Positions 2,576 to 38,889 of a DNA stretch of 64,000 nt are shown here, in pieces; position 1 is the first letter of the stretch; each line of letters opens with the position of its first letter. A program made the translations under genes and the position numbers. The notes beneath the pieces are model-generated. The model was not told the DNA's origin and searched no databases. It saw only the letters and a program-made list of their open reading frames with translations. Source of the DNA: a bacterium (GTDB lineage: Bacteria > Patescibacteriota > Minisyncoccia > Phycocordibacterales > UBA9973); NCBI GenBank assembly GCA_037127795.1, contig JBAXXQ010000001.1, positions 405,198 to 469,197 on the forward strand. Direction: 5' to 3'.

Positions 2576-4447
2576 ATGTATATCATAGAAATCATTCCTA
2601 TACAGCGAGGTATACCATTCGATATGCTCTCGTATTATCACAAAGATCCTGTTCCTGTAGGGTCTATTGTAGAAGCACCATTCAAAAGTGGGACGCTTTT
2701 TGGTATCGTCTTGTCGACAAAATCCCTCATTGAGATGCGTTCTGAAGTACGCGGCTCACGATTTAATTTCAAAAAAATTACTCGTGTAGTAAATAGCTCA
2801 TCACTTTTTACTGATATTGCGAGTATGATCACTACTATCAGCAATACACTCTGTGTCCCCAATGGTGCAATTGCGCGACTTTGTTTACCAGAAATATTAC
2901 TGCAACATATTCACATAAAAGAATTATCGCAACAATTGCGATCGAGTGATGATACCTTTTTCCATATTGATGTGTGCATAGAAAAAAAAGATGAGCGCAT
3001 TGCACTACACAAAAGAACTATTCGTGAATGTCTTTCAAAAAAGAAAAGTGTTATTTTTGTAGTACCCACTATTCGTGAAGCAGAAGATTGGGCCATCACC
3101 CTTGCGACAGGTATAGAAGAGCGTATTGTTGTACTTCATAGCGAAAAGAAGAAAAAAGATATAGCGACTTTTTATAAAAAAATGGAAGACAGTACTTCTG
3201 CAAGTATTTTTATTGTGACACCACAATACTTTGCACTTCCTCGCAATGATATCGGCGCAATTATAGGCGAATCACAAAACAGTCCTTTTTATATTTCTCG
3301 AGATAGATTCAATGTTGATATGCGTCTATGTATAGAGCAATACGCATTGATAAAAAAAGTACATCTTATATGGGGTACTAGTTTGCCGACTTTTGACCTC
3401 CTCGCAACAACCAAAACAACTATACCTCGCCATCTGACCCCAGAAAATATAGAGATTGTAGAGATAGAAAAACAAACAGGGACACTTCCTAAAGAAATAA
3501 TTGAACTTATTGCGTATTCTGTACACAATAAAAAGAAATTATTTATTTATACCAACCAAAAAGGATTTGCGCCGATATCTATGTGTCGAGATTGTCACAG
3601 TATATTGGAATGCGATCACTGCAAGCTCCCCCTTAAACTAAGTTATAAAGATAAAAAAGATCGCGAATCTGGAAGACAATTTATCTGTACCAATTGTGAA
3701 AGAACATATCCTATAGAAACCAATTGTGGTCTTTGCCAAAGCTGGAACATTTCTCCATTTTCAATTGGAAGTGATGCACTCTATACAGAGATACTTGAAT
3801 ACGTAGATCCTGATCATGTGTATATAGTAGACAATACGCACAGTCCTGATGAAAAAACTATACAGTCCTATATTCAAAAATCTGAAAATCAAGAATATGG
3901 TATTTTTATAGGAACAAAAAAACTACTTCCCTATTTACCATCGTTTGATTATTGTGTTATCCCGTTTTTTGATCGGCTTATACAGATACCTTCATATACC
4001 ACCGTCGAAGACATGCTCGATATTGTACTGACCATGAGTGAAAAATCTACCGACAAAATGATTATCTGTACCCGCAACCCAGAGCTTTCTCTCATCGAAC
4101 AATTACAAAATAAAAAATTACAACAACTTATTGCAGACGAGCTTGATATCCGAGAAAAACTCGAATACCCACCATACGCAACACTTCACAAAATAACTAT
4201 CACTGTCCCCAAAATAAAAGAGCTTCTCATATTGCAAGCATTCACAGACTTTTTTGCAAATCTAGAAATAAAAGCATCAGTACAAATAAAGCCAGAAAAG
4301 ACAGATTTTGGGCAAAAAATCACTGCGCAGTGTATTTTGAAGACGACTGATGCACATATACAAGAGCATGCTGAAGAAATAAAAGACTTTCTTCTCGGAC
4401 TCCCCGGGGGGTATTCTATAGAACGAAATCCTCGTCGTCTGTTGTAA
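2576..4447 (+). CDS. priA: Primosomal protein N' (PriA)-like. The Cys-rich zinc-binding region is present, but Walker A and DEEH motifs are degenerate.
   Basis: The N-terminus matches the PriA 3'-DNA-binding pattern (VPVGSIVEAPFKSGTLFGIV). The C-terminus has CRDCHSILECDHC...CTNCERTY...CGLCQS, the PriA Cys cluster. No GKT/GKS P-loop anywhere. The DEEH position reads GESQ. Confidence 0.65.
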   Translation: MYIIEIIPIQRGIPFDMLSYYHKDPVPVGSIVEAPFKSGTLFGIVLSTKSLIEMRSEVRGSRFNFKKITRVVNSSSLFTDIASMITTISNTLCVPNGAIARLCLPEILLQHIHIKELSQQLRSSDDTFFHIDVCIEKKDERIALHKRTIRECLSKKKSVIFVVPTIREAEDWAITLATGIEERIVVLHSEKKKKDIATFYKKMEDSTSASIFIVTPQYFALPRNDIGAIIGESQNSPFYISRDRFNVDMRLCIEQYALIKKVHLIWGTSLPTFDLLATTKTTIPRHLTPENIEIVEIEKQTGTLPKEIIELIAYSVHNKKKLFIYTNQKGFAPISMCRDCHSILECDHCKLPLKLSYKDKKDRESGRQFICTNCERTYPIETNCGLCQSWNISPFSIGSDALYTEILEYVDPDHVYIVDNTHSPDEKTIQSYIQKSENQEYGIFIGTKKLLPYLPSFDYCVIPFFDRLIQIPSYTTVEDMLDIVLTMSEKSTDKMIICTRNPELSLIEQLQNKKLQQLIADELDIREKLEYPPYATLHKITITVPKIKELLILQAFTDFFANLEIKASVQIKPEKTDFGQKITAQCILKTTDAHIQEHAEEIKDFLLGLPGGYSIERNPRRLL

Positions 4448-29607: not shown

Positions 29608-31980
29608 CTACAGTGATGAATCTTTTTTTAGATGGTATTTTTCAAAACCAGAAACTAAAATAGTATCGTATCTCGTAAGATTAAAACTTTTTTGATCTTT
29701 GATACCAGATAACATACTGTTGTTCAACATAAGAGCTGATTTAAAACCATCTTTCTCACTAACCACTGAGTTAGATATTGCTTCTTTTTGAAAAAGCACA
29801 CTATCTTTCGAGATTTCTTTTCGAGCCTCATCTGATATTGGAGCAATCAGTTTTATTTTTTCACCAACTTTTTTAACTTTTGCTTTTGCTAAAAAATCTG
29901 GATGAACACCAACAACTTCATTATCCCAAATTTTAACCTTAAAACTTGCCAATTCTTCACCTAACATACCAACAATAACTAAACCGTCATCTTGATTTAT
30001 TAGTGAATTTAAAGAAATAAGAGCATCTGTGTCTACATTAGCAATCTTTTGTTTAGCTTCTTTTCTAGTTTTAGCTAAGCTTTCTAATATAGGCTGTTTT
30101 TGATCAAGATAATCTTCGTATTCACCTACCTTTCGTTCGCGCAACAATTCAGTACTAATAGGTAATTCAAAAATTTTCAATGCAATACGGGCAGGTAAGA
30201 ATATTTCGTATGGATACAAATCCACAGAAGGTACTACTACACTTACACCTGTATATGCACATTTTTTTGTAAATAAGCACTTTACCGTCTCTTGATACAT
30301 CTTATCGAGAGATTTACAAAAAATCTTTCCATCTACAACAATCGCTTTGTCATATTGGGTTTTTGTATTAGAAAAAAGTGACCGTACAGCTGACACTAAC
30401 ATACAATACTCATTAACAAGTATTACTATTGGAGCTTTAATTTCCAAAAGTCTTTTAAATCGGTTGTTACGAATAATAATCCTACGATATAAGACATCAA
30501 TTGTCGACATACTATAAGTACCATCTTTTTCTTTTCCCAACATCCTAAAACCAGCAGGTATTACAAGTACATTTTCTAAAAAAACAGTTCCCTCAAAAGG
30601 TGCACATTGCTTTAATACACCTATTACAGATATATTATTTTTCGGATAAAACACCTCTCTAAACAATGAATCCAATTCCACACTACATTCAAGATTTTTA
30701 GCGCTAAAAAACTCTTTAAATAATTTTTGAAAATTAACACTTGTTTCATCTTGAAAAATAGGATTTGGTACAGGTACTGCCAAAGCAATATGACCAAAAC
30801 TACGGCGAAATATATCCTGTTTTTTTTCAGTGCCAAAAATCTTTTCACAAAATAATCCATTTTCTGAAAATTTTGTACAAGCTTTGTCACTAAAATAATC
30901 TGGAGTAGTAACCTCACCTTTTGATAAAGCTAATATTTCAGCTGTAGTTATTTTTGATACACGTAAATACGGTTTTTCTCCCTTAATAATCTCTGGTAGA
31001 AACCCCATACCCTGTAATAAACAAAAGCTATCCTCTAAAGAAACCCCTTCATCTGAACCAATAGTAATCCATTCAGAAACACTTTTTTCCAAACCTTTTT
31101 CTACTGCCTTTTGAATAAAAGTCTCCTTTAAAAGAACACCCTCATCTAATTGCATATTGTTTTTGAAAAATAACCCAGACATACCTACAGATTGACTTTT
31201 TGCTTCTACTAGGCCGGGCTGAATGTTGAATTTGAAAAAATCTACATACGCCTTTTCTTTAGTATCAACCCAATATGATCTGCCATTTTTATGCTCTCTA
31301 ACAGAAAGAAGAATCCTATCGTCTTTTTTGTTTTTAATAATATTTCTAAAATTCTCTTTTTCGGTTTTTTCCTCAGAAAGAATAGAAGATGTTACTACTA
31401 TTGAACAATAAATTTGTGGATCTTCTTCAAGCACAGGCATTTCTTTTTCACGAAGAATACCAGCCACAAGAAATTTTTGTTCTTCACAAAAAATAGTATC
31501 ACCAATAGAAAGATTACGTTTAATCAATAAGTAAATAGAAATTTTATTATCTACTCGCTCTGTCGATACTACGGTTGCCTTATCATAAAACCCCATAGAA
31601 ACTCCGGTATTTTCGATTATCTGACCGAAAACATTTTCCACCAGTCTTTCCTTAGAATTTTTTGGTTCAATTTTTTTAACTTTTGCAACCAGTAAATCAC
31701 CACAAGAAACCTCTGTACCAACATTAATAATACTGTCAGTACTACGTGCTTTGAAAAAATTTAAATCTTTTTCACTAATACGAGGCAGATTATTATCTAG
31801 CCATTCATCAGTTTCAAGTAAGATATCAACCTTTTCAACAATTGCTGTTTCAAAATATTTTTTATCAACAACTTTTTGGCTTACAAAAGCCATGTTTGGA
31901 GTATTGATGCCACCCCAAGAAGGCATAACAGTGGTAAGTAATCCTTTACTTACGGTGTCAGAAATTTTTCTTACGTTCAT
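29608..31980 (-). CDS. Degenerate RNA polymerase beta(C-terminal)/beta'(N-terminal)-like fusion protein lacking catalytic motifs
   Basis: Residues ~90-180 align with the RpoB C-terminal region (GDLLVAKVKKIEP..ERLVENVFGQ ~ GDILVGKVTPKGE..LLRAIFGEKA; ISIYLLIKRNLSIGD..EKEMP ~ VKVYLAVKRRIQPGD..IEDMP). GRHGNKG is replaced by CEEQKFLVAG. Residues ~360-640 align with the RpoC N-terminus (ENGLFCEKIFG ~ RDGLFCARIFG; RRSFGHIALAVPVPNPIF ~ RRERMGHIELASPTAHIWF; STIDVLYRRIIIRNNRFKRLLEIKAPIVILVNEYCML ~ [38 protein letters not shown]). No zinc-finger cysteines. No NADFDGD. Confidence 0.6.
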   Translation of the reverse strand: MNVRKISDTVSKGLLTTVMPSWGGINTPNMAFVSQKVVDKKYFETAIVEKVDILLETDEWLDNNLPRISEKDLNFFKARSTDSIINVGTEVSCGDLLVAKVKKIEPKNSKERLVENVFGQIIENTGVSMGFYDKATVVSTERVDNKISIYLLIKRNLSIGDTIFCEEQKFLVAGILREKEMPVLEEDPQIYCSIVVTSSILSEEKTEKENFRNIIKNKKDDRILLSVREHKNGRSYWVDTKEKAYVDFFKFNIQPGLVEAKSQSVGMSGLFFKNNMQLDEGVLLKETFIQKAVEKGLEKSVSEWITIGSDEGVSLEDSFCLLQGMGFLPEIIKGEKPYLRVSKITTAEILALSKGEVTTPDYFSDKACTKFSENGLFCEKIFGTEKKQDIFRRSFGHIALAVPVPNPIFQDETSVNFQKLFKEFFSAKNLECSVELDSLFREVFYPKNNISVIGVLKQCAPFEGTVFLENVLVIPAGFRMLGKEKDGTYSMSTIDVLYRRIIIRNNRFKRLLEIKAPIVILVNEYCMLVSAVRSLFSNTKTQYDKAIVVDGKIFCKSLDKMYQETVKCLFTKKCAYTGVSVVVPSVDLYPYEIFLPARIALKIFELPISTELLRERKVGEYEDYLDQKQPILESLAKTRKEAKQKIANVDTDALISLNSLINQDDGLVIVGMLGEELASFKVKIWDNEVVGVHPDFLAKAKVKKVGEKIKLIAPISDEARKEISKDSVLFQKEAISNSVVSEKDGFKSALMLNNSMLSGIKDQKSFNLTRYDTILVSGFEKYHLKKDSSL

Positions 31981-33723: not shown

Positions 33724-35985
33724 CTATTTTTTCTTAGTAGTAGACTTTTTTACAACTTTTGTAGTTGTTGGAGCAGGAGTTGTTACTGGTTGCTGTACTG
33801 TTGCACTACCTCCTTGTTTAAGCTTTGCCAATACTTCGTCGATTCCTTGAGTATTTGGACTAAGACTTTTTACCTGAGTAAATGCATCAAGTGCGTCTGC
33901 ATTATCCTTGATACCTACATAGTAATTTCCAAGTACTACATATCCTGAAGGATCAAATGGTTCTACTTTTGTATATGAGAGCAATGCATCACGAGCACCA
34001 CTTGAGTCTCCTGCAGATTGCTTCAATTGCGCTTTCAATACATATGCATCGAGGTAGTTTGGTTTGAGACTTATAGCATCTGCAATATAGCCATATGCTT
34101 TGTCTGTATCTCCTGTAGCGATAGAAATTTGTGCGAGAGAAAGAAGTGGTAATGGATTCTTTGGTGCATGTGCCTTTGCTTGCAATGCTGCTTGTTCTGC
34201 ATTTTGCGCAGTTTCTGGTTTATCTTTGTTTATAACAAGTTGATATACCTGTGAGAGAGAAAGCCAGTTTGATGCATCAGTATTGTCCCATGCAACAGCT
34301 GCTTGTGCTGATTGTTCTGCACTTGAGAAATATCCTTGCAATGCTGTCTTATCTGGATTTTCTTTTTTTGCTTCTGTATTAAATTGGTTAATAAAGAGAT
34401 TTGTACGAGCTTGCAAATATACATCATTTGCTGAAAGTTGTACTGCTTCATTAATATCATCGATTGCTGTTGGAGCATCTTTTGCAAAGAATGCTTTGTT
34501 GTAATACACAGTACCGGCAAATTTATTTAATGAGAAATATACTGCTGAGAAACTAGTCATAATAGCAACAACCAAAACCAAGATAGCGAAGAAACTAGTA
34601 CGAGGATCTTTCAAATAGTGGAATGTAAGAACTTTTTTCTTATCAGCAAGACTTGGAATACCTATCAAGATACCGAGGTACAAGAAACTCATTACAATAA
34701 GGATAAATCCTGGTGTTGAGATGAGAGTAAGAATAAAGAATACTGTTACTACTACCAAACTAGTTACAGAAATAAATCGTGAGAATTTATCAGGCAATGC
34801 AACAGCAAAAGATTTGAATCCTTGAATAATTACCAATACAAATATTACGAGCAATGCGAGCACTGGAAGAATACCGTTTGTAGCAAAGAGTGATTCAAAG
34901 AAAGAGTACCCTGTTTCAAATGGAGTATTCCAAACTGTTGTTTGATTGATTCCAGCTGGGTGGTACAAATTCCATGCACTTGAGAATCGTCCTGCGCCTA
35001 CACCAAAGGCTGGATTTGCATGAAGAGATGAGCGAACGACTTCTGCTGTTGCACCAAATGAAGGACGAATATCATTGAATACTACTCCAGCATACCGAGC
35101 AAGACCATATCCAACTGACGCACTACTGAGGAAGAAGAATAGTCCGATAAGTAATGATCCAAACGCAAAGAATGGGAATACTTGTACCTTACTATCATCT
35201 TCTTGTAAATCACTATTAAGCTTTTTCAAGAATTGTGCACCTGAGCGTTCAATAGAAGATTTGTATACGAATACGATAAGTGCAGCAATAGTAGAAATAA
35301 TCCACACAATACCGATATTGAGGAACGCCATTACAATAAGAGTCACACCAAGTGCTATGTATGAGAATGTCTTCAAAAGCTTTTTAGGGCGAAGCACTTC
35401 ACACATAAGAAGAGAGAGGAGGAATGTAAATGATACAAAGTATCCAAAATCAATCCATGATCCTACCAATGTTCCTTGGTTTGATACTGCAGCAAAATGC
35501 TTTGCAACAAATCCTGTATTTTGAGATACATACAAGATTACTTGCAATACTATTGTTATTACTGATCCGAGGAATCCAGCAACAAACAATTTTGCGAGAC
35601 GTTTTTCTTCCATTGCAATAGTTGCAACAATGAATGCAAACAATCCCAATGTGAGTGTTGTTGCAAATGAATCAAGTGCGAAGCCTCGACCCCAGAGAGA
35701 AACACTTACATTTTTTGAAAATAGCGCTCCTATAAAAGAAAGTACTACCCAACCAGCAACAAATAACAATGTCTTACTTTTTGGTACAGTAATACTACCA
35801 GCAATAAATTGCCCTACGAACCATACAGAAACTGCTAAAAATGTTCCTGTGTAAAAGAGAACCCCTTTTAATGCTAATACGCCACCTACATTTACCGGAA
35901 GAAATAGGAATGGCAACAAACCGATCATTACACTAATAATTGAGAACGCGACTTTATTACATTTATCTACTATATTTTGGTGCAT
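33724..35985 (-). CDS. Polytopic membrane protein with C-terminal TPR repeats (O-antigen ligase/Wzy-like architecture)
   Basis: More than 10 TM helices in the N-terminal 450 aa. The C-terminal soluble region has TPR-like repeats (AYGYIADAISLKPNYLDAYVLKAQ..) and a Thr/Lys-rich tail. Confidence 0.4.
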   Translation of the reverse strand: MHQNIVDKCNKVAFSIISVMIGLLPFLFLPVNVGGVLALKGVLFYTGTFLAVSVWFVGQFIAGSITVPKSKTLLFVAGWVVLSFIGALFSKNVSVSLWGRGFALDSFATTLTLGLFAFIVATIAMEEKRLAKLFVAGFLGSVITIVLQVILYVSQNTGFVAKHFAAVSNQGTLVGSWIDFGYFVSFTFLLSLLMCEVLRPKKLLKTFSYIALGVTLIVMAFLNIGIVWIISTIAALIVFVYKSSIERSGAQFLKKLNSDLQEDDSKVQVFPFFAFGSLLIGLFFFLSSASVGYGLARYAGVVFNDIRPSFGATAEVVRSSLHANPAFGVGAGRFSSAWNLYHPAGINQTTVWNTPFETGYSFFESLFATNGILPVLALLVIFVLVIIQGFKSFAVALPDKFSRFISVTSLVVVTVFFILTLISTPGFILIVMSFLYLGILIGIPSLADKKKVLTFHYLKDPRTSFFAILVLVVAIMTSFSAVYFSLNKFAGTVYYNKAFFAKDAPTAIDDINEAVQLSANDVYLQARTNLFINQFNTEAKKENPDKTALQGYFSSAEQSAQAAVAWDNTDASNWLSLSQVYQLVINKDKPETAQNAEQAALQAKAHAPKNPLPLLSLAQISIATGDTDKAYGYIADAISLKPNYLDAYVLKAQLKQSAGDSSGARDALLSYTKVEPFDPSGYVVLGNYYVGIKDNADALDAFTQVKSLSPNTQGIDEVLAKLKQGGSATVQQPVTTPAPTTTKVVKKSTTKKK

Positions 35986-36003: not shown

Positions 36004-38844
36004 CTAGAGTACAATATTTACCACACGACTTTCCACAACAATTATCTTTTTGACTTGTTGTCCAGATATGTACTGCTGAATCTTTTCATTTTCTAGTGCA
36101 AGTTTTTCAATTTCTTCTTTTGCGGTACCAATAGCGACTTCGATAGTGCCACGAAGTTTGCCATTTATTTGAATAGGAAGTGTCATCGTTGAGTCGATAA
36201 TTTTTGTAGGGTCATACTTAGGCCAAGACTCTAAATGAATACTTGAGGTGTTACCGAGCATATACCAAAGCTCCTCTGCTATATGTGGCGCAAATGGTGC
36301 AAGAAGTTGCAACAATGTTTTATATTCAGTATTTGAGATATTTTCTATACTATCCCACTCATTAGTCAAAATCATCATTTGAGAAATAGCAGTATTGAAT
36401 TTAAATTCTTCAATATCTTCAGTCATTTTTTTGATAGTTTTGTGTAATTGTTTTGTCTCTGTAGTTACGGTATCAGAAATTTTTTCTTGTAATTTCCACA
36501 CACGCTCAAGAAAACGTCGTACGCCAACTACCCCGTTTGGATCCCACGGATAATTTGTTGTTACTCCATATGGCCCCATAAATGCCAAATACATACGAAC
36601 AGTATCTGCACCGAGCAATTTCACAATATTATCTGGATCAATAACATTCCCTTTTGATTTACTCATTTTATTTCCATCAGGGCCTAATATGAGCCCGCGA
36701 TTGCGACGGACAGTATACGCTTCGGTATCTTGTACAAGCCCAATATCATAGAGCGCTTTTGTCCAAAAACGAGAGTATAGCAAGTGCATGGTAGTATGCT
36801 CTGCACCTCCCATATACAGATCAAGAGGCATCCATGCAGCCATTTTTTCTGGACTTGCAAAAGCCTCATTATTTTTATTATCTACATAGCGATAAAAGTA
36901 CCATGAAGAATCCACAAAAGTATCCATAGTTTCTACTTCCGGCTTCCAGCCTTTACCAAATATTTTTTCAGTGCGCTCAAAAAGCTCCTTACTACGAGCA
37001 AGTGGAGCTGTACCATCTGGGGTGTGATCTACATCTGTCGGCAAAAGCCATGGCAAATGTTCATCTGGGACCGGGTGCGCAATACCTTCTGGATCATACA
37101 CTATTGGTATAGGAGTACCCCAATATCTTTGACGGCTAATACCCCAATCACGAAGTCTATAAGTACTTACCAATCTCCCACCAACCTTATTAGTAATTTC
37201 TACCTTATCTACAAGTGGTCTATCTAATACTGGTAAATTGTACACACTAGCAAATTCAGCATCTCTTTCATCATGCATAGGTACTGCCATCACAGCTCCT
37301 GTACCATACCCAGCAAGCACATAATCTGCGATCCATACAGGAACAACTTCATTATTTGCGGGATTTATAACAAAAACACCTTTGAGCTGTACGCCAGTTT
37401 TCTCTTTTGATTGTTGACGATCAAGCTCAGACTTCTTTTTTGTATCTGCTATATATGCGAGTACTTCATCTTTGTTTTCTATTTGTGAAAGTAATTGCTG
37501 TACGAGTGCATGCTCTGGTGCAAGTACTACATATGTCACTCCAAAAAGTGTATCCGCACGAGTGGTAAATACAGTAATTTTTGTATCAAGCGCTTTCAGT
37601 AGTTCAGGTTCTTTTTCTGCATCAAAATGAGGAAGTTCTGCTTTTACAAAACGAGTAGGAACATTAAGCAATGTCTCAATTTCAGACATTTGTTTTTTTG
37701 TAATAGCATCATCAGCAGTATCTTGTATTATTTTTATAAAACCAGTATTTGATTTTATTTTTTTTACATCAAAATCCCAAGTAAATGTATCTTTAAAAAT
37801 TTTATCTTCTTCAAAATCAGGAGAACAAAAAGCACCAGATAATATAAGTCCTGCAATTGGTTTTGTTATTTTTTCCAAAACTTTCATTGCAACAACAGAG
37901 CCCAAACTATGCCCCCATACAATAGTATTTTCATCATAAGCAACAGCATCAAGCGCAGTGGCAACTTGTTCTATTTCTTTTGGAGAATTTGTATTTGGTA
38001 ATACTGGACAGACAACAGTGTGACCTCTTTTTTCCAACTCTTCTTTTAGCCATGCATACTTTCCTTCATTAGGAGACCCTTGGAAGCCATGAAGTAATAC
38101 ATATGTATATTTTTTTGTAAAACTAAAATCTATTTCACTACCCTCACTTCTTCCAATCCAATTTTTTTGAGATTCTTTTATAGCGTGTGGCCAGTCGCGA
38201 GTATCGAGATCATCGATAAGTCTATCTGCGTATTTTGTAATACGGAGCATCCACTGTTCTTGGTCACGCTGTATTACCTCGCTCCCACAACGCTCACACT
38301 TATTATCTACAACCTGCTCATTCGCAAGAATAGTCTGATCTTTAGGGCACCAGTTCACCTTGGTCACTGCACGATACACCAAATCTTTTTTAAGAAATTG
38401 TGTAAACATCCACTGTGTCCATTTGTAGTACTCAGGCGCACAAGAAACTATCTCTTTATCCCAATCAAACATTGCCCCCATACTCTTGAGCTGCTCACGC
38501 ATCACATCCATTTGCTTATATGTCCAACTCATTGGATCACCACCGAATTTGATAGCAGCATTTTCTGCAGGAAGACCAAATGCATCGAAGCCCATAGGGT
38601 ACAACACATTGAAGCCTTGCATACGTTTGTATCGCGCAAAAATATCTGGTACAGAAAATGCATACCAGTGTCCTACATGGAGATTGCCCGATGGATAACT
38701 AAACTCCACTAGTTGATAAAAATTCTCTTTTTCTGAGACACTATCTTGCACCTTATACAGACCCTGCTCTTGCCATTTCTCTTGCCATTTCTTCTCTATT
38801 TCTACATGGTTGTATAGGTTTTTCATATATACCCATTTTTTCAT
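36004..38844 (-). CDS. leuS: Leucyl-tRNA synthetase with an inserted alpha/beta serine-hydrolase domain
   Basis: HIGH region (YPSGNLHVGHWYAF), CP1 editing domain (TVFTTRADTLFGVTYVVLAPEH, GTGAVMAVPMHDERDAEFA) and KMSKS (GNKMSKSKGN) are all present. About 180 extra residues between WIGRSEGSEIDF and the CP1 start carry HG (LLHGFQGS), GHSLG and PHFD motifs. Confidence 0.85.
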   Translation of the reverse strand: MKKWVYMKNLYNHVEIEKKWQEKWQEQGLYKVQDSVSEKENFYQLVEFSYPSGNLHVGHWYAFSVPDIFARYKRMQGFNVLYPMGFDAFGLPAENAAIKFGGDPMSWTYKQMDVMREQLKSMGAMFDWDKEIVSCAPEYYKWTQWMFTQFLKKDLVYRAVTKVNWCPKDQTILANEQVVDNKCERCGSEVIQRDQEQWMLRITKYADRLIDDLDTRDWPHAIKESQKNWIGRSEGSEIDFSFTKKYTYVLLHGFQGSPNEGKYAWLKEELEKRGHTVVCPVLPNTNSPKEIEQVATALDAVAYDENTIVWGHSLGSVVAMKVLEKITKPIAGLILSGAFCSPDFEEDKIFKDTFTWDFDVKKIKSNTGFIKIIQDTADDAITKKQMSEIETLLNVPTRFVKAELPHFDAEKEPELLKALDTKITVFTTRADTLFGVTYVVLAPEHALVQQLLSQIENKDEVLAYIADTKKKSELDRQQSKEKTGVQLKGVFVINPANNEVVPVWIADYVLAGYGTGAVMAVPMHDERDAEFASVYNLPVLDRPLVDKVEITNKVGGRLVSTYRLRDWGISRQRYWGTPIPIVYDPEGIAHPVPDEHLPWLLPTDVDHTPDGTAPLARSKELFERTEKIFGKGWKPEVETMDTFVDSSWYFYRYVDNKNNEAFASPEKMAAWMPLDLYMGGAEHTTMHLLYSRFWTKALYDIGLVQDTEAYTVRRNRGLILGPDGNKMSKSKGNVIDPDNIVKLLGADTVRMYLAFMGPYGVTTNYPWDPNGVVGVRRFLERVWKLQEKISDTVTTETKQLHKTIKKMTEDIEEFKFNTAISQMMILTNEWDSIENISNTEYKTLLQLLAPFAPHIAEELWYMLGNTSSIHLESWPKYDPTKIIDSTMTLPIQINGKLRGTIEVAIGTAKEEIEKLALENEKIQQYISGQQVKKIIVVESRVVNIVL

Positions 38845-38889
38845 AAAAACCCTATAAAAGCAATAAAACCCTCATTTCGAGGGTTTTAT

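What the first reader, a model, noticed from the sequence alone, without database searches (positions are those of the whole stretch)
37582..38118. Leucyl-tRNA synthetase carries an inserted RBBP9/YdeN-type alpha/beta serine-hydrolase domain just before the CP1 editing domain
In typical LeuRS, about 10 residues separate WIGRSEG.EI.F from the start of CP1 (TVYTTRPDT). Here about 180 residues are inserted. They carry an oxyanion-hole HG (VLLHGFQGSPNEGKYAWLKEELEKRGH), a nucleophile elbow GHSLG (TIVWGHSLGSVVA) and a C-terminal His (AELPHFDAEK). In pattern and spacing this matches the PF06821-like Ser-hydrolase family (E. coli YdeN, human RBBP9). The canonical CP1 editing motifs are still intact after the insert. 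A second hydrolase fold embedded at the editing-domain junction of an aaRS is an unusual architecture. It might act as an auxiliary deacylase or esterase, or it might be a mobile domain insertion.
Basis: partly seen in the sequence, partly recalled or inferred. Interest (0 to 1): 0.6.

Follow-up and report, generated by a model that had tools for sequence, protein, structure and literature searches.

The report
Serine hydrolase nested inside LeuRS
The leucyl-tRNA synthetase of this small-genome (Patescibacteria-type) bacterium carries a complete, apparently active serine-hydrolase domain spliced into a hairpin at the edge of its proofreading domain. Close relatives of that hydrolase are almost always found either inside LeuRS or encoded immediately upstream of the LeuRS gene, which suggests an undescribed accessory activity of this essential enzyme.

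Summary
Window 36004..38844 (-) encodes a bacterial LeuRS (TIGR00396, 865 bits). Residues 243-421 (37582..38118) are a 179-aa insert in the turn of the first CP1 hairpin, 5 residues before the T-rich editing motif.

The insert is an RBBP9/YdeN-type alpha/beta serine hydrolase:
- Pfam matches are above the curated cut-offs.
- A family profile hits YdeN at 1.5e-48.
- The AF2 model has pLDDT 94.
- The best Foldseek matches are RBBP9 and YdeN (TM 0.79-0.85).

It is not a one-off. At least 38 species-level Patescibacteria genomes carry it in frame at the same site, and others carry it just after CP1. In 39 aligned LeuRS copies, HG, Ser313 and His406 are (near-)invariant, residue 378 is always Asp or Glu, and the CP1 editing residues are also invariant.

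The closest standalone relatives lie directly upstream of insert-less leuS in four bacterial contexts. In one further case the gene sits in a hydrolase-hydrolase-YbaK-like-Ham1-leuS operon with an archaeal-type leuS.

In related LeuRS the same two sites also host NUDIX, ASCH, Ham1, HAD, nucleotidyltransferase-like and DUF559 domains.

The best reading is an active aminoacyl-linkage hydrolase functionally coupled to LeuRS. The substrate is unknown. I found no published description.

The parts
36004..38844 (-). leuS ORF. It is 946 aa from the first ATG. NCBI's identical protein P0002 starts at Met7 (38826) and is 940 aa. The stop codon is at 36004-36006.
   Evidence: TIGR00396 864.6 bits; P0002, 100% identical.
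38119..38844 (-). N-terminal catalytic (Rossmann) part of LeuRS, residues 1-242. It includes HIGH (HVGH, 38668-38679) and ends with hairpin strand SEGSEIDFSF (38119-38148).
37582..38118 (-). Inserted RBBP9/YdeN-type alpha/beta serine-hydrolase domain, residues 243-421.
   Evidence: boundaries.
38086..38091 (-). Oxyanion-hole His252-Gly253 (LLHG).
   Evidence: His in 39/39 and Gly in 38/39 LeuRS-embedded copies.
37900..37914 (-). Nucleophile elbow G311-H-S313-L-G315. The Ser313 codon is at 37906-37908.
   Evidence: HSLG is invariant in 39/39 copies. Ser is present in 52/52 embedded representatives.
37711..37722 (-). Acidic triad region D375-T-A-D378. Asp378 (37711-37713) aligns with the catalytic Asp of YdeN/RBBP9. 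Asp375 (37720-37722) is a signature residue of the LeuRS-linked subfamily.
   Evidence: Residue 378 is D in 27 and E in 12 of 39 copies. Residue 375 is D in 36/39, against Ser in 100/113 generic family members.
37627..37629 (-). Catalytic His406 (PHFD).
   Evidence: 39/39; 52/52 embedded representatives.
37165..37581 (-). CP1 editing domain, residues 422-560. It carries the T-rich motif TTRADT (37549-37566) and HDERD (37261-37275).
   Evidence: PF13603 164.8 bits. T427, T428, R429, D431, T432, D525, R527 and D528 are invariant in 39 insert-bearing LeuRS.
36007..37164 (-). Second half of the catalytic core (KMSKS at 36655-36669), the anticodon-binding domain and the C-terminal domain, residues 561-946.

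Best explanation
SHOWN. Residues 243-421 form a complete, separately folding RBBP9/YdeN-type alpha/beta serine hydrolase: oxyanion H252-G253, nucleophile Ser313, acid Asp378, base His406. The domain is inserted in the turn of the first beta-hairpin of the CP1 editing domain of an otherwise intact bacterial LeuRS. It belongs to a LeuRS-dedicated subfamily that occurs in three arrangements: as a gene immediately upstream of leuS, as an insert before CP1 (this window), or as an insert after CP1. The catalytic residues have been kept across LeuRS cores that are only about 45-55% identical.

INFERRED. The domain is an active second hydrolytic module that works together with LeuRS. By analogy with RBBP9, Ser313 would attack the carbonyl of an alpha-aminoacyl linkage (ester, thioester or amide) carrying a hydrophobic side chain. 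This forms an aminoacyl-enzyme, which His406/Asp378-activated water then hydrolyses. The most likely role is a built-in 'trans-editing-like' clean-up of products that LeuRS generates and that CP1 does not clear. Candidates are mis-acylated tRNA(Leu) 3' ends, released non-cognate aminoacyl species, or homocysteine thiolactone. CP1 keeps its own editing site, so the hydrolase adds to editing and does not replace it.

Confidence by layer: fold, family and insertion about 0.97; catalytically active about 0.85; functionally coupled to LeuRS about 0.6; aminoacyl-linkage clean-up or proofreading as the specific role about 0.35.
For: Family and fold.

Clean loop insertion, with short linkers in the full-length AF2 model (pLDDT 84).

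Purifying selection:
- Ser313 and His406 are present in 52/52 embedded representatives.
- In 39 aligned LeuRS, His252, HSLG and His406 are invariant and residue 378 is D or E in all 39.
- The insert is 66-74% identical to those of P0003, P0004 and P0006, whose LeuRS are 72-75% identical overall.

Spread: 38 of 42 GTDB loci hold the domain in frame between the N-terminal core and CP1. A further 8 metagenome loci do the same.

Specific link to leuS:
- The nearest standalone homologues are P0185, P0127, P0130 and P0135, which are 50-55% identical to embedded copies.
- Each lies directly upstream of, and co-directional with, an insert-less leuS. The gaps are 2, 6, 24 and 36 nt, and the outer neighbours differ.
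- P0153 sits in the arrangement hydrolase - hydrolase - YbaK-like tRNA_edit (PF04073) - Ham1 - archaeal-type leuS.
- Family members that are 35% identical or less are not near leuS.

Subfamily-specific conserved residues, absent from generic YdeN proteins: E292, Q293, F344, F354, W356, D375, E412.

Chemistry precedent: RBBP9 traps single Leu/Ile, Met, Phe, Tyr or Trp residues on its catalytic Ser. It needs a free alpha-amine. Its authors allow 'amide (or ester or thioester)' substrates (PMC8866121).

Position: the insert is 5 residues upstream of the T-rich editing motif.
Against: - No substrate was tested, and no model coordinates were available. Whether the Ser313 pocket faces the tRNA 3'-end path or the CP1 pocket is unknown.
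- The same two LeuRS sites host unrelated enzymes in close orthologues: NUDIX, ASCH, Ham1, HAD, an ANT(2'')-like nucleotidyltransferase and DUF559. The sites may therefore simply tolerate passengers.
- The same hydrolase clade also occurs sporadically inside ValRS (not next to CP1), AlaRS, TsaD, an Fmt-like protein, UvrA and SecA.
- LeuRS orthologues 75-78% identical lack the insert, so it is dispensable for LeuRS function.
- RBBP9's alpha-amine anchor Glu108 has no strictly conserved counterpart. Only D346 is a partial candidate, in 26/39 copies.
- I know of no alpha/beta-hydrolase-fold aminoacyl-tRNA deacylase (own knowledge).
- The insert has markedly lower GC3 than the host gene. This suggests looser constraint or a different history.
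Confidence: 0.45

Rival explanations
1. Autonomous passenger enzyme. A small housekeeping YdeN-type esterase or aminopeptidase is nested in a permissive surface loop of an essential, constitutively expressed protein. It does its own job (for example peptide or ester turnover) with no mechanistic link to aminoacylation. The benefit would be guaranteed co-expression and saved regulatory sequence in a streamlined genome, or there may be no benefit at all.
For: Many unrelated domains occupy the same two LeuRS sites in close orthologues. The same hydrolase clade sits in UvrA, SecA, TsaD and ValRS at ordinary inter-domain loops. The insert is present or absent among LeuRS that are 75-78% identical. 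CP1 editing residues are unchanged with or without the insert. The insert's GC3 is lower than the core's in 31/35 genes.
Against: The closest standalone relatives are repeatedly the immediate upstream partner of leuS, with differing outer neighbours and even with an archaeal-type leuS. LeuRS is by far the commonest host. The subfamily has its own conserved signature residues.
Confidence: 0.3
2. Substrate provisioning. Like RBBP9, the domain is an aminopeptidase that releases N-terminal hydrophobic residues (above all Leu) from scavenged peptides. It would supply LeuRS in organisms that cannot make amino acids. This would be a Rosetta-stone fusion of consecutive steps.
For: RBBP9 is an aminopeptidase that forms Leu/Ile, Met, Phe, Tyr and Trp adducts (PMC8866121). 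The domain is linked to leuS by fusion and by adjacency. Rare hosts include ValRS and AlaRS, which use other abundant hydrophobic amino acids. Patescibacteria are generally amino-acid auxotrophs (own knowledge).
Against: Channelling a freely diffusing amino acid gives little obvious advantage. This reading does not explain the operon partners YbaK-like deacylase and Ham1. It also does not explain the UvrA, SecA and TsaD hosts or the NUDIX companion.
Confidence: 0.12
3. Self-protection. The hydrolase cleaves the aminoacyl linkage of LeuRS-directed toxins, such as leucyl-adenylate mimics or aminoacyl-nucleoside antibiotics. This would resemble the way MccF detoxifies processed microcin C (own knowledge).
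For: The domain has a tight physical and genetic link to the antibiotic target LeuRS. In one orthologue the same site hosts an aminoglycoside-2''-adenylyltransferase-like domain. The family's chemistry targets alpha-aminoacyl linkages.
Against: This is purely analogical. No toxin gene or resistance context was seen. The domain is conserved across very diverse environments and lineages.
Confidence: 0.05
4. Selfish or decaying insertion: an intein-like or homing element, or a neutral remnant that is inactive or spliced out.
For: The distribution is patchy. GC3 is atypically low. A DUF559 endonuclease occupies the same site in one orthologue.
Against: The junctions lack intein features: the insert begins with Thr-Lys and ends with Asp-Thr, with no His-Asn. 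The catalytic triad is fully conserved in all 39 aligned and 52 representative copies. The insert diverges only slightly faster than the LeuRS core.
Confidence: 0.03

Closest known systems
RBBP9 / YdeN serine hydrolases (Pfam PF06821; PDB 2qs9, 7oex, 9fcr, 1uxo)
   Same: Both are minimal alpha/beta-hydrolase folds of about 180 aa without a lid domain. Both have the HG oxyanion motif, a GHSxG elbow and a Ser-Asp-His triad in the same order and spacing. Foldseek TM is 0.79-0.85 and the profile E-value is 1.5e-48 to YdeN.
   Different: The known members are free-standing proteins, whereas this one is nested inside LeuRS. Identity to RBBP9 is only 25-26% and to YdeN 20%. RBBP9's amine-anchoring Glu108 is not conserved. 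The LeuRS-linked clade has its own signature (E292, Q293, F344, F354, W356, D375, E412) and a longer 340-357 loop. The function of bacterial YdeN is unknown.
Canonical bacterial LeuRS with the CP1 editing domain (e.g. E. coli 4aq7/4arc, T. thermophilus 2bte, N. gonorrhoeae 7nu3)
   Same: It has the same core, with HIGH, KMSKS, the CP1 T-rich motif and the HD.RD motif. The full-length model matches these structures at TM about 0.7-0.78.
   Different: None of the 50 best-matching solved chains (621-876 residues in the structure) has a domain in the first CP1 hairpin. The window protein also has a shortened C-terminal part of CP1 and no leucine-specific domain.
Free-standing trans-editing factors (YbaK/ProX PF04073, AlaX, Dtd)
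   Same: Conceptually both are an extra hydrolytic module that complements a synthetase. A YbaK-like gene shares an operon with the hydrolase and leuS in L056.
   Different: The fold and catalytic mechanism are unrelated. Those factors are not serine hydrolases (own knowledge). No deacylase activity has been shown for any YdeN-family protein.
Alpha-amino-acid ester hydrolases of the alpha/beta-hydrolase superfamily, e.g. human BPHL/valacyclovirase (own knowledge, not tested here)
   Same: These are serine alpha/beta hydrolases that cleave hydrophobic L-aminoacyl esters of nucleosides and need a free alpha-amine. This is a chemical precedent for an aminoacyl-ribose ester substrate.
   Different: They belong to a different, larger alpha/beta-hydrolase subfamily with a cap domain. 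No sequence relationship beyond the superfamily was shown here.
Other synthetases with accessory enzyme domains, e.g. NCBIfam NF040702 'isoleucine--tRNA ligase, N-acetyltransferase domain-containing' (listed)
   Same: Both are class Ia synthetases carrying an extra catalytic domain.
   Different: The domain family differs. This protein is not a member (64 bits against a cut-off of 1999).

Membership tests
RBBP9/YdeN serine hydrolase family (PF06821) | Match to the family HMM above the curated threshold | tested here: met
   The insert alone scores 24.4 bits against GA 22. Within the full protein it scores 20.2, which is below GA. 29 of 39 insert-bearing LeuRS hit PF06821 at E<=1e-5. The family profile hits YdeN at 1.5e-48 and RBBP9 at 1e-33.
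RBBP9/YdeN serine hydrolase family (PF06821) | Minimal alpha/beta-hydrolase fold of about 180 residues without a cap | tested here: met
   The AF2 model has pLDDT 94.1 and pTM 0.91. The top 7 Foldseek PDB hits are RBBP9 and YdeN, TM 0.79-0.85.
RBBP9/YdeN serine hydrolase family (PF06821) | HG oxyanion motif and a Ser-Asp-His triad at the family positions | tested here: met
   H252-G253, S313, D378 and H406 are conserved in 39/39 LeuRS copies (D or E at 378; Gly253 in 38/39).
RBBP9/YdeN serine hydrolase family (PF06821) | Hydrolase (aminopeptidase-type) activity that needs a free alpha-amine | not testable with these tools
   This is known only for human RBBP9 (PMC8866121). The Glu108 equivalent is not conserved.
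Bacterial leucine--tRNA ligase (TIGR00396) | Equivalog HMM above the cut-off | tested here: met
   864.6 bits against 548.4.
Bacterial leucine--tRNA ligase (TIGR00396) | HIGH and KMSKS signature motifs | tested here: met
   HVGH 56-59 and KMSKS 726-730.
Bacterial leucine--tRNA ligase (TIGR00396) | CP1 editing domain with the T-rich motif and the conserved Asp | tested here: met
   PF13603 164.8 bits. TTRADT and HDERD are invariant among 39 relatives.
Intein / self-splicing insertion | Cys/Ser/Thr at the N-junction, His-Asn at the C-junction and a nucleophile at +1, with a Hint fold | tested here: not met
   The junctions read ...DFSF|TKKY... and ...KALDT|KITV.... There is no His-Asn, and the fold is alpha/beta hydrolase.
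YbaK/ProX trans-editing deacylases (PF04073) | Match to the tRNA_edit domain | tested here: not met
   The window protein has no PF04073 hit. A PF04073 gene is only an operon neighbour in L056.

The most novel reading that the evidence does not exclude
The insert and its leuS-adjacent standalone relatives would be the first alpha/beta-hydrolase-fold aminoacyl-tRNA (or aminoacyl-ester/thioester) proofreading enzyme. That would give LeuRS a third hydrolytic quality-control site, and it would reveal the long-sought native function of the bacterial YdeN/RBBP9 family. More broadly, LeuRS in Patescibacteria would serve as a modular scaffold into which its own operon partners (hydrolase, NUDIX, Ham1) are repeatedly built.
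Probability: 0.25. Interest if true: 0.9.

Novelty: new variant of a known kind. Interest (0 to 1): 0.66.

Why it matters
LeuRS is one of the best-studied editing synthetases and is a drug target. A conserved, catalytically intact serine hydrolase built into the CP1 hairpin, or encoded right next to leuS, in dozens of candidate-phyla-radiation species suggests an accessory activity that has not been described.

The finding gives a concrete, testable lead to the function of the orphan YdeN/RBBP9 family: an aminoacyl-linkage substrate connected with LeuRS.

It also shows that two loops flanking CP1 are natural insertion hot spots. They accept at least seven different enzyme families, which is useful for protein engineering and for understanding how streamlined genomes package functions.

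There is a practical consequence too. Public annotation names this essential LeuRS 'alpha/beta fold hydrolase'. Gene callers also often truncate such genes at the insert, which can make LeuRS look absent in metabolic reconstructions.

Tried and rejected
- The word-index search with the insert alone returned one distant hit and missed even the identical protein. The exhaustive search was needed.
- A mixed alignment of full LeuRS with standalone hydrolases (A2) misaligned and was discarded. Separate alignments A3 and A4 were used for the structure predictions.
- The 30-sequence alignment A1 was too diverse for locus scanning. It was replaced by A5 and A7, so the two scans are motif-biased samples and not censuses.
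- The 'split LeuRS' idea came from the many database proteins that begin exactly at the hydrolase. It was rejected for the one such protein checked: for P0129 the open frame in L001 is continuous for 1175 aa, so the start is a gene-calling artefact. The fragmented leuS in L002 looks like a frameshifted assembly.
- The idea that the hydrolase always flanks an editing domain was rejected. In ValRS P0172 it sits at the loop before the 'YYPT' motif, not next to CP1.
- The idea that CP1 is degenerate in insert-bearing LeuRS was rejected, because the editing residues are invariant.
- The intein or selfish-element reading was rejected on the junctions and on triad conservation.
- The afdb50 fold library was unavailable.
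- Model coordinates are not exposed, so no geometry could be measured (active-site orientation, distance to CP1).
- Six literature searches found no description of this architecture (one paper checked). One search served to find the RBBP9 precedent.
Full report
**1. The observation**

The minus-strand ORF at 36004..38844 encodes 946 aa. It is a bacterial LeuRS: TIGR00396 scores 864.6 bits against a cut-off of 548. The HIGH motif (HVGH, 56-59), the KMSKS motif (726-730) and a CP1 editing domain (PF13603, 164.8 bits) are all present.

Residues 243-421 (window 37582..38118) are extra. Insert-less orthologues that are 75-78% identical read SEGSEIDFQI-K-EID-KKITVFTTRADT. The window reads SEGSEIDFSF-[179 aa]-KITVFTTRADT. 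The insert therefore sits in the turn of the first CP1 beta-hairpin, 5 residues before the T-rich editing motif TTRADT (427-432).

An identical protein (P0002, 940 aa, on a 580,599-bp contig) is in NCBI. There it is named 'MAG: alpha/beta fold hydrolase'.

**2. What the insert is**

- On the insert alone, five Pfam alpha/beta-hydrolase models pass their curated cut-offs, including Ser_hydrolase PF06821 (24.4 bits against 22).
- A profile built from the insert and 113 standalone homologues hits B. subtilis YdeN (1uxo) at 1.5e-48 and human RBBP9 at about 1e-33.
- AlphaFold2 with that alignment gives pLDDT 94.1 and pTM 0.91.
- The seven best Foldseek matches in the PDB are RBBP9 and YdeN, with TM 0.79-0.85. 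The next hits are about six orders of magnitude weaker.
- In the full-length model (pLDDT 84, pTM 0.72) the insert folds as the same separate domain. Linkers of about 4 and 2 residues connect it to the two intact hairpin strands.
- None of the 50 best-matching solved LeuRS chains (621-876 residues in the structure) has anything at this position.

**3. It is conserved and looks active**

An exhaustive phmmer search of 1.84 billion representatives found 1098 relatives. The best were mostly proteins of about 1000 aa with the domain at residues about 240-415. BLAST with LeuRS pieces showed these to be LeuRS, with the hydrolase before CP1 in 42 proteins and after CP1 in 6.

A scan of one genome per GTDB species gave 42 loci. 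In 38 of them the domain is in frame between the LeuRS N-terminal core and CP1. All 38 are from Patescibacteria: Paceibacterota, Kaiserbacteria, Taylorbacteria, Curtissbacteria and Minisyncoccia.

In the alignment of these 38 with the window protein:
- H252, H312-S313-L314-G315 and H406 are invariant.
- G253 is present in 38/39.
- Residue 378 is Asp in 27 and Glu in 12.
- The CP1 editing residues T427, T428, R429, D431, T432, D525, R527 and D528 are also invariant.

Ser313 and His406 are present in 52/52 embedded representatives. The insert is 66-74% identical to those of P0003, P0004 and P0006, whose LeuRS are 72-75% identical overall. Insert identity tracks core identity (Pearson 0.53 over 325 pairs). 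This is the pattern of a domain under purifying selection that is largely inherited with its host.

**4. A specific link to LeuRS**

Within the embedded clade there are genuine standalone genes of about 180 aa. P0127, P0130, P0135 and P0185 are 50-55% identical to embedded copies.

Each of these four lies immediately upstream of, and co-directional with, an insert-less leuS. The gaps are 6, 24, 36 and 2 nt. The outer neighbours differ in each case.

A fifth, P0153, heads a tightly packed row: hydrolase, second YdeN-like hydrolase, YbaK-like tRNA_edit protein (PF04073), Ham1, leuS. Here the leuS is of the archaeal type (TIGR00395, 608.6 bits).

A metagenome scan showed a clear split. Relatives that are 43% identical or more to P0130 were all inside LeuRS, apart from P0130's own leuS-adjacent locus (one of these loci also has an extra standalone copy about 1 kb upstream). 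Relatives that are 35% identical or less were standalone genes with no LeuRS nearby.

The LeuRS-linked clade carries signature residues that are absent from generic YdeN proteins: E292, Q293, F344, F354, W356, D375 and E412. It also has a longer 340-357 loop.

So the same hydrolase lineage is tied to LeuRS in three arrangements: upstream gene, pre-CP1 insert and post-CP1 insert. This is Rosetta-stone-type evidence for a functional relationship.

**5. Evidence that cuts the other way**

Among the 120 closest LeuRS clusters there is a wide range of architectures:
- About half have no insert.
- Many carry a NUDIX domain of about 175 aa after CP1.
- At the pre-CP1 site (or just inside CP1, as for ASCH in P0003), others carry ASCH, a DUF559 endonuclease, an aminoglycoside-2''-adenylyltransferase-like domain or Ham1.
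- One has NUDIX plus a HAD-like domain after CP1.

Twenty of the 39 hydrolase-bearing LeuRS also have NUDIX. The two loops flanking CP1 are therefore general landing sites.

The hydrolase clade is also found, once each among the top 150 representatives, inside ValRS, AlaRS, TsaD, an Fmt-like protein, UvrA and SecA, and fused to an inositol monophosphatase. In the ValRS it is not next to the editing domain.

The insert is dispensable for LeuRS as such, because close orthologues lack it.

Families seen as inserts (hydrolase, NUDIX, Ham1) are also seen as genes just upstream of leuS. This suggests that operon partners are recruited into the gene. That fits either functional coupling or mere opportunity.

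**6. Mechanism**

The only characterised family member is human RBBP9. When its catalytic Ser is replaced by Dap, it traps single Leu/Ile, Met, Phe, Tyr or Trp residues. It requires a free alpha-amine. [quoted passage not shown] This is the chemistry of aminoacyl esters and thioesters that a synthetase produces.

I therefore favour the following reading. Ser313, Asp378 and His406 hydrolyse an alpha-aminoacyl linkage connected with the LeuRS reaction, acting as a built-in counterpart of a trans-editing factor. CP1 keeps its own editing function.

What is shown:
- the fold and family;
- the intact triad and its conservation;
- the position next to the editing motif;
- the genomic coupling to leuS.

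What is inferred:
- catalytic activity;
- the substrate class;
- cooperation with LeuRS.

The rivals are:
- an autonomous passenger enzyme;
- a Leu-releasing aminopeptidase that feeds LeuRS;
- detoxification of aminoacyl-adenylate mimics;
- a selfish or decaying insert.

The last is disfavoured by the junction sequences and the fully conserved triad.

**7. Comparison with what is known, and novelty**

The domain passes the sequence, fold and catalytic-residue tests for RBBP9/YdeN membership. Activity could not be tested. The host passes the tests for bacterial LeuRS. The insert is not an intein and not a YbaK-type factor.

Six literature searches found no description of a LeuRS with an alpha/beta-hydrolase or NUDIX insert. 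A 2026 survey of domain insertions that discusses LeuRS editing domains also does not mention one.

I rate this a new variant of a known kind: known parts in an undescribed, widespread and evolutionarily dynamic architecture.

**8. Caveats**

- The two locus scans used motif-derived patterns, so they are biased samples.
- The number of independent insertion or adjacency events was not determined by tree reconciliation.
- Statements about BPHL, MccF, homocysteine-thiolactone editing and Patescibacteria auxotrophy rest on my own knowledge, not on tool results.

Noticed in passing
window 29608..31980 (-): A 790-aa ORF with low GC3 (0.197). It has an RpoB-like piece (Pfam Rpb2_6, residues 20-186) followed by an RpoC-like piece (Rpb1_1, residues 467-558). 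PDB phmmer matches residues ~450-634 to beta' residues ~226-427 at E 5e-21. It could be a YonO-like single-chain two-barrel RNA polymerase, perhaps of mobile-element origin.
   Followed up: partly
window 37582..38118 versus the rest of 36004..38844: The insert has GC3 of 0.128, against 0.307 for the rest of leuS, although GC at codon positions 1 and 2 is similar. Its GC3 is lower than any 537-nt in-frame window of the other 37 large ORFs (minimum 0.145). The same bias holds in 31/35 other insert-bearing leuS genes (mean -0.079, Wilcoxon p 4e-8). The cause is unexplained.
   Followed up: partly
LeuRS orthologues P0003-P0121; loci L013-L050: A second insertion hot spot lies just after CP1. It carries NUDIX in many Paceibacteria LeuRS, including 20 of the 39 that also have the hydrolase. 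At or near the pre-CP1 site, other orthologues carry ASCH, DUF559, an ANT(2'')-like nucleotidyltransferase or Ham1, and one has NUDIX plus a HAD-like domain after CP1.
   Followed up: partly
L056 3501-7549 (GCA_020049755.1): A tightly packed row of genes: YdeN-like hydrolase, second YdeN-like hydrolase, YbaK-like tRNA_edit protein, Ham1, archaeal-type leuS.
   Followed up: partly
P0002 (identical to the window LeuRS); P0129 / L001 3167-6694: There are annotation problems. NCBI names this LeuRS 'alpha/beta fold hydrolase'. Relatives with inserts are named 'class I tRNA ligase family protein'. Gene callers often start the gene at the hydrolase boundary, which truncates LeuRS even though the frame is open for 1175 aa.
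   Followed up: yes
P0172, P0177, P0158, P0196, P0180, P0154, P0198: The same hydrolase clade is nested in ValRS, AlaRS (after the tRNA-synt_2c catalytic region, upstream of the tRNA_SAD domain), TsaD, an Fmt-like protein, UvrA and SecA. It is also fused N-terminally to an inositol monophosphatase.
   Followed up: partly
window ~38845..38889: A terminator-like hairpin (AAAACCCTC-gaaa-TGAGGGTTTT, followed by ATT) lies between the murG stop and the leuS start. leuS follows mraY-ftsW-murG on the same strand but may have its own promoter.
   Followed up: no
window 33724..35985 (-) and 2576..4447 (+): Two large ORFs (753 aa, with many predicted hydrophobic segments, and 623 aa) have no Pfam match at E<=1e-6.
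   Followed up: no
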